Shown: in pieces, positions 11,042-34,559 of the stretch | Layout: each line of letters begins with the position of its first letter | Position numbering within the stretch: the first letter of the stretch is position 1 | Source: a virus | DNA length: 64,000 nt | Virus record (IMG/VR): IMGVR_UViG_3300025237_000002 | Span: 46,536 to 110,535 of that record | Direction: 5' to 3' (one strand) | Position numbers and translations under genes: made by a program | Notes under the pieces: model-generated | Database searches by the model: none | What the model saw: only the letters and a program-made list of their open reading frames with translations | What the model was told of the DNA's origin: nothing

Positions 11042-11899
11042 ATGAAACAATTTAAAATTCAATCGACTATTACTAGTCGAGGTACCAATGCATTAAAAGC
11101 TTATTTTAATGATATCAAGCAAATCAAAATACTAACATCAGAAGAAGAATACGAAATTGCTTACCTAGCTCATGAAGGTGATGAAAAAGCTAGGCAAGAC
11201 CTTGTAAGACATAACCTACGTTTCGTAGTATCTGTTGCAAAACAATACGAAACATCAACCCTAAAACTTGAGGATTTAATCAATGAAGGTAATGTTGGTT
11301 TAGTGATTGCATCAACGAAATTCGACCCTTCAAGAGGTTTTAAGTTTCTATCATACGCTGTATGGTGGATTAGACGTTATATCTTAGCTTACATATCTGA
11401 TAACGGTAAAACTATCAGAATTCCTAACAACAAAATCAACATCATTACTAAACTTAAAAGTAAGTATGTTGCGTTAGAACAAAGGTTACAACGTGAACCA
11501 AGCTATAACGAACTTGTAGAGTACGTTAGCCCTGATTTTAACGAAGATGAAGTACATTACTTTTTTATGTCAAGAGATAATTACACCTCATCATTAGATG
11601 CACAAGTTGGACATGATGACTTTGGTAGCAATACTTTAGCTGATACAATTGAAGATAATACTGTAATTAAGACTTCACACTATGTAGACGAACTAGATAG
11701 TGAATATAGAAAAAATACGATGCTAAACCTATTGGATAAAGACATTGAAAGAGAAGTTATTAGGTTAGCGTTTGGTTTAGATGGTCAATCACCATTACCA
11801 TTAAAAACCATTGCGTTCTTATTAGGAGTTACTAGTGAGAGAGTTAGACAAGTTAAAGAAATATCTTTAAGACAATTAAAAATAAAACTAAGTAATTAG
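11042..11899 (+). CDS. RNA polymerase sigma-70 factor, Bacteroidetes RpoD/SigA-like
   Basis: NLRFVVSVAKQY, DLINEGNVGL, GFKFLSYAVWWIR, ERVRQVKE; short N-terminus as in Bacteroidetes SigA. Confidence 0.92.
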   Translation: MKQFKIQSTITSRGTNALKAYFNDIKQIKILTSEEEYEIAYLAHEGDEKARQDLVRHNLRFVVSVAKQYETSTLKLEDLINEGNVGLVIASTKFDPSRGFKFLSYAVWWIRRYILAYISDNGKTIRIPNNKINIITKLKSKYVALEQRLQREPSYNELVEYVSPDFNEDEVHYFFMSRDNYTSSLDAQVGHDDFGSNTLADTIEDNTVIKTSHYVDELDSEYRKNTMLNLLDKDIEREVIRLAFGLDGQSPLPLKTIAFLLGVTSERVRQVKEISLRQLKIKLSN

Positions 11900-31473: not shown

Positions 31474-31527
31474 ATTAGGTTGTCTCAAATAAAAGTAGTA
31501 TCTTTGTAAGAACATTAAAGCTATTAT

Positions 31528-33691: not shown

Positions 33692-33816
33692 AATACTAAG
33701 CCAAAATATTGCCAATAACCCACAAGACTTCAATGCTGAAAGACTAGAAGAACTATTCAATGAATATGCTCAACAATGTCAAAAACAAGTGGAAATGGAC
33801 TGTCAAAACATCTAAT

Positions 33817-34221
33817 ATGATTAAAGATAATAAATTCGAACTACCAAAAATAAGAAAGTTATTCTACTACTTCTTCCCATTTAAAGGAAAAGAGGTGAGA
33901 CTTAAATTTAAACCAGCTTGGTACGGTGGTGGATATATGGAACTGAAGTATTCAGTCAATGGTGGTAAATGGTATAATATCCTTGAAGTTGTTGAAGATT
34001 TAAGCATGTCTGGTGGATGGTATTGGTTTAGACATGCGAAAACTTGGTCAACCGAATATGGCGCACTTAAACTATCTGACATGTATGAGAGATATGGCAC
34101 GCAAGGACAACTTCTTAAAATGATTGACGATGTGTACGATGAGCAGAAAAAGAAAAATAAAGTCATTGATGATGCTAAAAGAAAACATAATAAGAATATA
34201 AATGATACGCTAAACTCATGA
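33817..34221 (+). CDS. hypothetical protein
   Basis: start corrected. Confidence 0.6.
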   Translation: MIKDNKFELPKIRKLFYYFFPFKGKEVRLKFKPAWYGGGYMELKYSVNGGKWYNILEVVEDLSMSGGWYWFRHAKTWSTEYGALKLSDMYERYGTQGQLLKMIDDVYDEQKKKNKVIDDAKRKHNKNINDTLNS

Positions 34222-34523
34222 ATATTGTAGATGAAGACATGGCTCACCATGAAAAACTAAGGTTGATGAAAGGTCCTGAAAATATAAAAGCTGGATTCTA
34301 TTACGCACCATATATCCCAGTAACAGAAGCTATCATGGTAAATGGTGAGTACACTTGGCATAGAAACAAATGGAAGAACTTCTTCCTGAAGGTAAAATAC
34401 TTCTTTAAAAAACCACAATACCTTAAACATTTGGAAAAATCTAGGTATGAAATTAAAAAAGTTAATCCTAAATTCTATGGCACTTTAAAAATAAATGAAG
34501 AAACATTAGATGAAACGAAATAA
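34218..34523 (+). CDS. stand-alone fragment homologous to the C-terminus of T4 gp23-type major capsid protein
   Basis: KGPENIKAGFYYAPYIP and KSRY..K.VNP.FYG motifs. Confidence 0.7.
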   Translation: MNIVDEDMAHHEKLRLMKGPENIKAGFYYAPYIPVTEAIMVNGEYTWHRNKWKNFFLKVKYFFKKPQYLKHLEKSRYEIKKVNPKFYGTLKINEETLDETK

Positions 34524-34559
34524 TTGTTGTATCTTTGTAATCTAAATAAGTTAAGCACT

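What the first reader, a model, noticed from the sequence alone, without database searches (positions are those of the whole stretch)
34218..34523. Stand-alone mini-capsid fragment (gp23 C-terminal motifs) outside any structural module
Seen: 101 aa ORF with KGPENIKAGFYYAPYIP...KSRYEIKKVNPKFYG. From memory, T4 gp23 reads KGPNEMDAGIYYAPYV...KTRYGIGINP. The ORF is intact, translationally coupled and has an unrelated insert between the motifs. Known: several defences sense major capsid protein (Lit, CapRel). Inference: a capsid decoy or mimic, an assembly modulator, or an inhibitor of competing phages. It also indicates a T4-like head.
Basis: partly seen in the sequence, partly recalled or inferred. 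Interest (0 to 1): 0.7.

Follow-up and report, generated by a model that had tools for sequence, protein, structure and literature searches.

The report
Conserved mini-protein derived from capsid protein
This 101-residue phage gene belongs to a conserved, undescribed family of small basic proteins that evolved from the tail end of the T4-type major capsid protein, keeping the two strands around the loop where three capsomers meet and adding a new hairpin-helix there; its function is untested.

Summary
The ORF at 34218-34523 (+) is intact and its ATG overlaps the upstream stop (ATGA). The capsid resemblance is real homology.

- **Direct signal is weak:** Pfam Gp23 E=0.002 and 18 bits, below the 24.4-bit cut-off.
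- **A conserved family exists:** 40 clusters of small proteins, all 51-159 aa, down to E=6e-20. Among relatives dN/dS is 0.07-0.29.
- **Bridging members link it to the capsid protein:** P0002 (55% identical to this ORF) and P0034 match the C-terminus of gp23-type capsid proteins from phages carrying the family (BLASTP 2e-7; HMM P 5e-10 and 9e-13).
- **Position in T4 gp23:** the two motifs map to the P-domain strands flanking the P-loop, which holds the gp31-bypass and head-length mutation sites.
- **The "unrelated insert" is the best-conserved part:** a hairpin plus amphipathic helix sits at the P-loop.
- **One member is circularly permuted.**
- **Distribution:** one copy per genome, no synteny, none found in prokaryote genomes, cultured phages or PHROGs.

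My best guess, by inference only, is a protein that binds the capsid protein or capsomer by imitating the inter-capsomer contact. A function unrelated to capsids is nearly as likely. A defence decoy is less likely, because the capsid-like parts are the least conserved.

The parts
34218..34523 (+). 101-aa ORF, member of a conserved phage-only family of capsid-protein-derived mini-proteins (pI 9.4)
34266..34325 (+). N-motif, residues 17-36 (MKGPENIKAGFYYAPYIPVT). Equivalent to T4 gp23 438-457, the P-domain beta-strand leading into the P-loop
   Evidence: Domain assignment from PMC9546572
34326..34436 (+). Conserved family-specific module at the P-loop position, residues 37-73. Predicted beta-hairpin 38-48, amphipathic basic helix 51-63 and short helix 67-73. 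Carries invariant N42, W47 and N54
   Evidence: Gap position
34437..34496 (+). C-motif, residues 74-93 (KSRYEIKKVNPKFYGTLKIN). Equivalent to the ...TRYAKKM..(F/Y)YG.I... segment at the C-terminus of gp23-type capsid proteins (T4 KTRYG, 474-478)
33760..34221 (+). Upstream 153-aa ORF whose TGA overlaps the mini-gene ATG (ATGA at 34218-34221). No homologue next to the mini-gene in other phages
31499..31506 (+). TATCTTTG promoter-like box, the nearest upstream on the + strand and the likely start of the ~3-kb unit of small ORFs that ends with the mini-gene
   Evidence: 50 copies in the window against 4.9 expected. Use as a promoter is inferred
34530..34537 (+). TATCTTTG promoter-like box 7 bases after the mini-gene's stop codon, so the mini-gene is probably the last gene of its unit

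Best explanation
**Shown.** The ORF belongs to a conserved, virus-only family of small basic proteins, typically 70-100 aa. The family descends from the last ~60-85 residues of a gp23-type (T4-type, HK97-fold) major capsid protein. It keeps the two P-domain beta-strands that flank the P-loop. At the P-loop it carries a family-specific, highly conserved beta-hairpin plus amphipathic lysine-rich helix.

**Inferred.** The protein works by imitating the capsid protein's contact surface. In T4, this stretch and its P-loop make the contacts between neighbouring capsomers at the quasi-threefold axes. The same stretch holds the gp31-chaperonin-bypass site and head-length mutation sites. A free copy of this ribbon could dock onto newly made capsid protein or capsomers, either by adding a strand to their sheet or by occupying the threefold contact site. 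The added hairpin-helix would then block, delay or reshape capsomer-capsomer joining. That would make it a trans-acting regulator or inhibitor of head assembly, for the phage's own capsid protein or a co-infecting rival's.

In this phage the gene is the last in a ~3-kb unit of small ORFs that begins at the nearest upstream TATCTTTG promoter-like box. No head or tail gene was found among the ORFs scanned on the contig. It is therefore probably made before or independently of the head genes.
For: **Family and selection**
- 40 clusters of small proteins (51-159 aa) match at E down to 5.8e-20, and no full-length capsid protein is among them.
- dN/dS is 0.07-0.29 for informative pairs.
- There is one copy per genome.

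**Homology to the capsid protein**
- hhalign of the family against the G005 MCP gives E=2.6e-4, collinear, with a 17-residue insertion.
- The family HMM scores MCPs at P 4e-6 to 3e-5, and 0 of 6000 shuffled MCPs reach this.
- MCPs are the top non-family hits among 1455 ORFs.
- An HMM of the last 85 MCP residues ranks family members right after the MCPs. It scores P0034 at 34.7 bits (P 9e-13) and P0002 at 26 bits (P 5e-10).
- BLASTP of P0034 and of P0002 against the G001 MCP each gives E=2e-7.
- P0002 is 55% identical to the window ORF.

**Mapping to T4**
- Residues 17-36 equal gp23 438-457.
- A455V bypasses gp31 and lies in the P-domain sheet. T457A, R460C and G461S change head length and affect the P-loops that meet at quasi-threefold axes (PMC9546572).

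**Other support**
- A genuine circularly permuted member (L031:4325-4603) fits two strands that lie side by side as a ribbon.
- AF2 is confident for the hairpin-helix (pLDDT 83-95) but forms no sheet from the capsid-like ends (block means 52-85). This is compatible with strands that need a partner.
- All three family-bearing records in which a capsid gene could be seen have a gp23-type MCP.
Against: - No binding, structural or expression data exist, and the mechanism rests on homology alone.
- The capsid-like strands are the least conserved part of the family (top-residue frequency 0.42 and 0.46, against 0.71 for the hairpin-helix).
- In some members the strands are badly eroded (for example L024, IVYIPFEF), while the same strands in the capsid proteins are almost invariant. 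Strict interface mimicry would predict the opposite.
- The gene has no fixed position relative to head genes, and its neighbours are mostly nucleotide-metabolism or unknown genes.
- The family profile alone does not find T4 gp23 in the PDB, and only 2 of 26 members touch Pfam Gp23.
- Cultured T4-like phages assemble heads without such a protein.
Confidence: 0.4

Rival explanations
1. Exapted scaffold with a function unrelated to capsids. The capsid-derived ribbon survives only as a structural support. The conserved basic hairpin-helix is the working part, for example a small nucleic-acid-binding or host-protein-binding factor of the early/middle programme.
For: - The insert is much better conserved than the capsid-like strands, and three of the four invariant residues after the start Met lie in it.
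- All 21 members computed but one are basic: pI 9.0-10.0, with L007 at 7.6.
- The gene sits among accessory and nucleotide-metabolism genes: thymidylate synthase, thymidylate kinase, small unknown ORFs.
- Some members carry extra N- or C-terminal domains, as adaptor modules do.
- No co-variation with the cognate capsid protein is visible in three pairs.
Against: - P31 and Y32 of the APY strand motif and Y77 of the C-motif stay at or above 90% conservation in the first alignment (P31 is still at or above 90% in the second).
- The family is so far seen only with gp23-type capsids.
- No nucleic-acid-binding or other fold was recognised.
- AF2 does not make a compact autonomous fold from the ends.
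Confidence: 0.3
2. Decoy or sponge for host immunity that senses the capsid protein. An early-made fragment would occupy or desensitise a sensor that recognises a short motif in the P-domain of gp23-type capsid proteins.
For: - Capsid proteins are frequent triggers of defence. CapRel and Lit detect short motifs, and Avs7, Avs8, Avs10 and Dsr1 bind the MCP (PMC9712102 listed; bioRxiv 10.64898/2026.01.04.697583).
- A phage competitor for a structural-protein sensor is known: DSAD1 against DSR2 (PMC11087589 abstract).
- Placement is probably early and non-structural.
- Scattered, non-syntenic distribution resembles that of counter-defence genes.
Against: - The mimicking parts are the least conserved and diverge from nearly invariant capsid strands. 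A decoy should track the sensed epitope.
- Whole-fold sensors (Avs7, Avs8, Avs10) cannot be imitated by a 60-residue ribbon.
- From memory, the Lit trigger lies elsewhere in gp23.
- A fragment that binds such a sensor might activate rather than block it.
- No defence system is known for these uncultured hosts.
Confidence: 0.15
3. Chance or convergent resemblance. The family is unrelated to capsid proteins and merely shares short beta-strand motifs.
For: - Direct scores are weak: Pfam 18 bits, below cut-off, and PDB E about 1.
- The family profile finds nothing in the PDB.
- Fold searches are empty.
Against: - Two motifs occur in the same order at the same C-terminal position.
- The reciprocal HMM ranking is specific.
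- Bridging members reach P 9e-13 and BLASTP 2e-7, with 15 of 29 identities to the extreme C-terminus of the MCP.
- 0 of 6000 shuffled decoys reach the observed scores.
Confidence: 0.05
4. Decaying remnant of a recombination or duplication of the capsid gene's 3' end, with no function.
For: Partial 3'-end duplicates arise near mobile endonuclease genes in T4-like phages (general knowledge). HNH or GIY-YIG ORFs neighbour some members.
Against: - 40 diverged clusters all have intact ORFs.
- dN/dS is 0.07-0.29.
- There is a conserved new module.
- The family spans phages whose capsid proteins are only 31% identical.
- The gene lies far from the capsid gene.
Confidence: 0.02

Closest known systems
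gp23-family major capsid protein (Pfam PF07068; T4 gp23; PDB 5VF3, 7VS5)
   Same: Homologous to its C-terminal P-domain strands and P-loop region (T4 438 to about 490). It shares G-[YF]-x-Y-A-P-Y-[IV]-P and [ST]-R-Y-x-x-K-K...[FY]-Y-G motifs with the capsid proteins of phages that carry the family.
   Different: It covers only about 12-18% of the protein. It lacks the N-arm, E-loop, spine helix, A-domain and insertion domain. It has a 15-17-residue or longer conserved hairpin-helix insertion at the P-loop. It cannot form an HK97-fold subunit and scores below the Pfam cut-off.
gp24 vertex protein of T4, and Ccm capsid-protein homologues of phage satellites (capsid paralogues with accessory roles)
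   Same: These are genes derived from the major capsid protein that were kept for a specialised role in or on head assembly.
   Different: Those are full-length HK97-fold subunits built into shells. This is a fragment-sized derivative encoded by the phage itself, often far from head genes.
Trans-acting capsid-assembly modifiers: P4 Sid, SaPI CpmA/CpmB, PLE TcaP (PMC10945586, listed)
   Same: They are small or medium proteins that bind the capsid protein lattice and change how capsomers join. This is the mechanism I infer here.
   Different: They are encoded by satellites, are not derived from the capsid protein, and have demonstrated function. Here the gene is in phage genomes that also carry terL, portal and MCP, and its function is untested.
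DSAD1, a phage inhibitor that counteracts the tail-tube sensor DSR2 (PMC11087589)
   Same: It is a precedent for a phage protein that counteracts a defence protein which senses a structural protein. This is the model for the decoy reading.
   Different: To my knowledge DSAD1 is not described as a fragment of the sensed protein. No sensor is known here.

Membership tests
Gp23 major capsid protein family (PF07068) | Whole-protein score at or above the Pfam gathering threshold (24.4 bits) | tested here: not met
   18 bits, E=0.002. Only 2 of 26 family members match at E<=1.
Gp23 major capsid protein family (PF07068) | Complete HK97-fold subunit (the profile has 376 positions; proteins are about 450-600 aa) | tested here: not met
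   The ORF is 101 aa and only profile positions 306-332 match. The AF2 model is a hairpin plus helices, with no HK97 match.
Gp23 major capsid protein family (PF07068) | Sequence homology to a gp23 segment (common descent of the C-terminal P-domain ribbon) | tested here: met
   Bridging members P0002 and P0034 reach BLASTP 2e-7 and HMM P 5e-10 and 9e-13.
New mini-protein family (alignments A1, A2; not in Pfam or PHROGs) | Core x-I-N-G-E-x-V-W-x-x-N-K-W-K-N-x-L-L-K-I-K-x-F-F with invariant N42, W47 and N54, flanked by the APY strand and the Y..K.IN...YG tail | tested here: met
   The window ORF scores 106.5 bits against the family HMM.
Satellite capsid-size redirectors (Sid, CpmB, TcaP, Ccm) | Encoded by a phage satellite that lacks its own capsid and packaging genes | tested here: not met
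   G001 (161.7 kb, 97% complete) carries the mini-gene together with terL, portal, scaffold-like and MCP genes.
Satellite capsid-size redirectors (Sid, CpmB, TcaP, Ccm) | Binds the helper capsid protein and changes capsid size | not testable with these tools
   Needs co-folding of complexes or experiments.
Anti-defence decoy or sponge for capsid-sensing immunity | Binds an MCP-sensing defence protein and prevents its activation | not testable with these tools
   No host or sensor is known. Indirectly weakened by the low conservation of the mimicking strands.
T4 head decoration proteins (Soc, Hoc) | Sequence or fold similarity to Soc or Hoc | tested here: inconclusive
   No PHROG, Pfam or fold match of any kind. 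Absence of a match does not exclude it.

The most novel reading that the evidence does not exclude
The family is a trans-acting capsid-interface mimic. A phage-encoded free copy of the P-domain ribbon, with a modified P-loop, docks at the quasi-threefold contact of gp23-type capsomers. It would control when capsomers join, how large the head becomes, or whose capsomers join (self-regulation or exclusion of rival T4-type phages). The region it imitates is the one that holds T4's head-length and chaperonin-bypass mutations. This would be the first natural capsid-protein fragment used by a phage as an assembly regulator or weapon.
Probability: 0.3. Interest if true: 0.85.

Novelty: new variant of a known kind. 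Interest (0 to 1): 0.58.

Why it matters
Capsid-protein paralogues such as gp24 and satellite Ccm are known. I found no description of a conserved, stand-alone protein built from a fragment of an HK97-fold capsid protein in five literature searches, in Pfam or in PHROGs.

The fragment covers the stretch of gp23 where head-length and gp31-bypass mutations map. If the protein binds capsomers, it would give a natural tool for studying size determination and inter-capsomer contacts in T4-type and jumbo phages. If it binds something else, it is a clear case of a structural-protein piece recruited as the scaffold for a new small fold, with a natural circular permutant.

In either case, several dozen diverged orphan ORFs in abundant uncultured phages now have an origin.

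Tried and rejected
- **The look-up of encoding contigs was closed.** I could not fetch the 158-kb contig that also carries this exact protein. This phage's own capsid gene was therefore not seen.
- **An exact-pattern scan of metagenome contigs found nothing.**
- **Megablast of 5 kb around the gene against cultured phages gave no match.**
- **tblastn of the ORF against cultured phages** gave only E about 2-9 hits, those listed being in capsid genes, and no family member.
- **The single-sequence scan of viral contigs found nothing.** The alignment-based scan found 20 loci.
- **Genome contigs has no member.**
- **The family profile against the PDB found nothing.**
- **PHROGs has no family for it.**
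- **The ESM Atlas gave no usable lead.**
- **Foldseek against PDB and BFVD, and VIA-align wide, gave no meaningful match.**
- **The second AF2 run with a deeper alignment did not change the model.**
- **Promoter timing in other loci was uninformative.** Counts of TATCTTTG and TATAAATA upstream of the gene showed nothing, except that L007 has TATCTTTG 22 nt upstream.
- **No conserved neighbour exists.** Of the + strand ORFs in window 20-47 kb, only the mini-gene has homologues in the 20 related loci.
- **Reading P0034 as two tandem copies run together by the gene caller was rejected.** It is a single ORF with its own ATG, and the upstream ORF is unrelated.
- **Debris and chance readings were rejected** for the reasons given under the rival explanations.

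Full report
**1. The observation**

The window is the last 64 kb of a 110.5-kb IMG/VR viral contig that CheckV rates 31% complete. The whole phage is therefore probably about 350 kb. GC content is about 32%.

Its ATG overlaps the TGA of the upstream 153-aa ORF as ATGA.

Residues 17-36 align to T4 gp23 438-457: MKGPENIKAGFYYAPYIPVT against YKGPNEMDAGIYYAPYVALT. T4's KTRYG follows 17 residues later.

Taken alone these matches are weak:
- Pfam Gp23 gives E=0.002 and 18 bits, against a cut-off of 24.4, covering only profile positions 306-332 of 376.
- PHROG 138 (major head protein) gives E=0.044.
- tblastn against 50,697 cultured phage records gives 631 hits at E about 2-9, those listed being in major capsid/head protein genes.

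**2. A conserved family**

An exhaustive phmmer search of 1.84 billion representative proteins found 40 clusters at E<=1e-3, the best at 5.8e-20. All are small, 51-159 aa, and none is a full-length capsid protein.

The alignments (A1; A2) give this consensus: GYIxxPYxxKTxxTxINGETVWYxNKWKNLLLKIKxFFxKPKxLKxxxxYxxKxINPxxYxxIxI.

Features of the family:
- N42, W47 and N54 are invariant.
Mean top-residue frequency is 0.71 for residues 38-63, against 0.42 for the N-motif and 0.46 for the C-motif.
- Of the 21 members computed, 20 are basic (pI 9.0-10.0); L007, which carries a C-terminal extension, is 7.6.
- dN/dS is 0.07-0.29 for pairs with measurable dS.
- There is one copy per genome.
- No member was found in 185,579 prokaryote species genomes or in cultured phages.
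- No PHROG or Pfam family covers it.

**3. Is it really capsid-derived?**

An alignment-based scan of viral contigs gave 20 loci. Three of five parent records contain gp23-family capsid proteins, including G001, which is 161.7 kb and 97% complete. The other two are fragments.

The C-termini of these capsid proteins read, for example, ...KGTSILETGYIYAPYIPMQLTPVMYNPFDFTPIRGILTRYAKKMVLNRYYGKILCDG... This lines up with both motifs of the mini-protein, in order, at the very end of the capsid protein.

The tests were:
- hhalign of the family against the G005 capsid protein gives E=2.6e-4. It aligns family columns 7-82 to MCP 494-551 of 560, with one 17-residue insertion.
- The family HMM against 123 capsid proteins with Z=1 gives P 3.6e-6 to 3e-5, with both motifs aligned. 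None of 6000 shuffled capsid proteins reached 10.5 bits.
- Among 1455 ORFs from all loci, the capsid proteins of G003 and G005 are the first non-family hits.
- In reverse, an HMM of the last 85 residues of 68 distinct capsid proteins ranks family members directly after the capsid proteins. The window ORF scores E=5.8e-4 in that database.

Some family members retain much more similarity. P0034 scores 34.7 bits (P 9e-13) and P0002 scores 26 bits (P 4.6e-10). By BLASTP against the G001 capsid protein:
- P0034 gives E=2e-7, with 15 of 29 identities to residues 528-556 of 557.
- P0002 gives E=2e-7 in one gapped alignment over 469-552, with a 15-residue gap at the P-loop.

P0002 is the closest relative of the window ORF, at 55% identity and E=5.8e-20. 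Homology is therefore established transitively.

The motif RYAKK...FYG is typical of the capsid proteins of these uncultured phages rather than of T4, which has TRYGIG. The ancestor was probably a capsid gene of this group.

**4. Where the piece sits in the capsid protein**

Using T4 numbering fixed, I read the cryo-EM paper on T4 heads (PMC9546572). It reports:
- T457A, R460C and G461S alter head length. They lie near quasi-threefold axes, where three P-loops from adjacent capsomers touch.
- Capsomers are also held together by charge contacts between an acidic P-domain helix and a positive patch on P-domain strands.

In T4 numbering, the mini-protein corresponds to:
- the strand entering the P-loop (438-457);
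- the D/N-P turn of the loop, where invariant N42 aligns with D463 of T4 and with N/D of the YNP/YDP turn in related capsid proteins;
- the return segment (474 onward).

The conserved hairpin-helix is inserted just after that turn.

AF2 with 26 or 36 sequences is confident for residues 31-70: strands 38-41 and 44-48, helices 51-63 and 67-73, pLDDT 83-95. It leaves the capsid-like ends without regular pairing, at block-mean pLDDT 52-85.

One member is circularly permuted: C-motif, linker, N-motif, hairpin, helix. It is a genuine single ORF (L031:4325-4603) with its own ATG overlapping the stop of an unrelated upstream ORF. It is seen in two sources. A permutation is easy if the two strands lie side by side with their outer ends close together, as in a beta-ribbon. 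That reading is an inference.

**5. Context**

Of the + strand ORFs in window 20-47 kb, only the mini-gene has homologues in the 20 loci, so there is no synteny.

The gene's neighbours in other phages vary:
- In G001 and G005 it lies 2.3 kb and 0.8 kb upstream of terL-portal. In G001 the genes in between are a dehydrogenase-like gene and thymidylate kinase.
- In three other groups it sits beside thymidylate synthase.

In the window, the octamer TATCTTTG occurs 50 times against 4.9 expected. Earlier notes of this scan read it as the phage's promoter box for a Bacteroidota host. I confirmed only the enrichment. On the + strand near the gene it occurs at 31499 and at 34530, which is 7 bases after the mini-gene's stop. 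The gene is therefore probably the last in a ~3-kb unit of small ORFs. In L007 the same box lies 22 nt upstream of the mini-gene.

I found no head or tail gene among the 20 largest ORFs of the contig. It carries NAD-salvage genes, a sigma factor, a glucosyltransferase and similar genes.

The capsid proteins of G001 and G005 are only 31% identical. The family is therefore either old or mobile among T4-type phages.

**6. Mechanism**

What is shown is the origin, the conservation and the anatomy. What the protein does is inference.

My preferred reading (confidence 0.4) is interface mimicry. A free P-domain ribbon with a remodelled P-loop binds capsid protein or capsomers at the threefold contact or at the sheet edge. 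It thereby regulates or blocks capsomer joining, for the phage's own head or a rival's.

The main argument against this reading is that the capsid-like strands are the least conserved part. They have drifted while the cognate capsid strands are nearly invariant. That favours the rival (0.3) that the ribbon is only a scaffold for a new basic hairpin-helix with another target.

The decoy reading (0.15) suffers from the same drift. [quoted passage not shown]

Chance resemblance (0.05) and debris (0.02) are disfavoured by sections 2 and 3.

**7. Comparison and novelty**

The ORF fails membership of PF07068 as a capsid protein, on both score and architecture, but it is homologous to a segment of it.

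It is not a satellite size-redirector, because it is encoded in phage genomes that have their own head genes.

Five literature searches turned up no description of a conserved stand-alone fragment of an HK97-fold capsid protein.

I rate it a new variant of a known kind (capsid-protein derivatives with accessory roles) and give it moderate to high interest. The scan's index held no look-alike of this protein.

Noticed in passing
L031:4325-4603 (+): A circularly permuted family member (P0034). The capsid C-motif comes first, then the N-motif, hairpin and helix. It is translationally overlapped with an unrelated upstream ORF and is the member with the strongest similarity to the capsid C-terminus.
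   Followed up: yes
L031:4596-4853 (+) and L031:6038-7060 (+): By eye only, not scanned: directly downstream of the permuted mini-gene is an 85-aa GIY-YIG-like ORF. About 1.4 kb further on is a 340-aa phage-encoded DnaJ-like chaperone with a J-domain and a zinc-finger CxxCxGxG region.
   Followed up: no
window 34530-34537 and 49 other sites: TATCTTTG occurs 50 times in the window against 4.9 expected. It is strand-consistent with gene direction, and one copy sits 7 bases after the mini-gene's stop. Earlier notes of this scan read it as the phage's promoter box.
   Followed up: partly
L008:10218-12104 (+), also in L009: A 628-aa ORF in which thymidylate synthase is joined in frame with an HNH endonuclease segment (residues about 179-414). 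This could be an intein-like or in-frame homing-endonuclease insertion, and it lies immediately downstream of the mini-gene.
   Followed up: no
L018:9947-10351, L007:7170-7637; proteins P0009, P0012, P0007, P0020, P0031: Some family members carry extra domains. L018/P0013 has a C-terminal CxxC...CxxC segment. L007 and P0009 have C-terminal extensions that look like small beta-barrels. P0007, P0020 and P0031 have unrelated 40-75-aa N-terminal extensions. This suggests the mini-module can serve as a fusion partner.
   Followed up: no
proteins P0045-P0164 (relatives of the G005 capsid protein P0044): This gp23-type capsid protein is very abundant in metagenomes. The search filled its 8000-candidate limit; the 120 hits listed are 90% or more identical over the last 231 residues. 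They occur on contigs up to 362 kb. Two are labelled in NCBI as MAG proteins of Paceibacterota and Dehalococcoidia, probably phage contigs mis-binned into MAGs.
   Followed up: no
window 11042-11899 (+): A sigma-factor-like gene (phrog_351, E=4e-53) has homologues at 40-46% identity in G002 and G004, two other family-bearing jumbo-phage fragments. It has none in G001, G003 or G005.
   Followed up: partly
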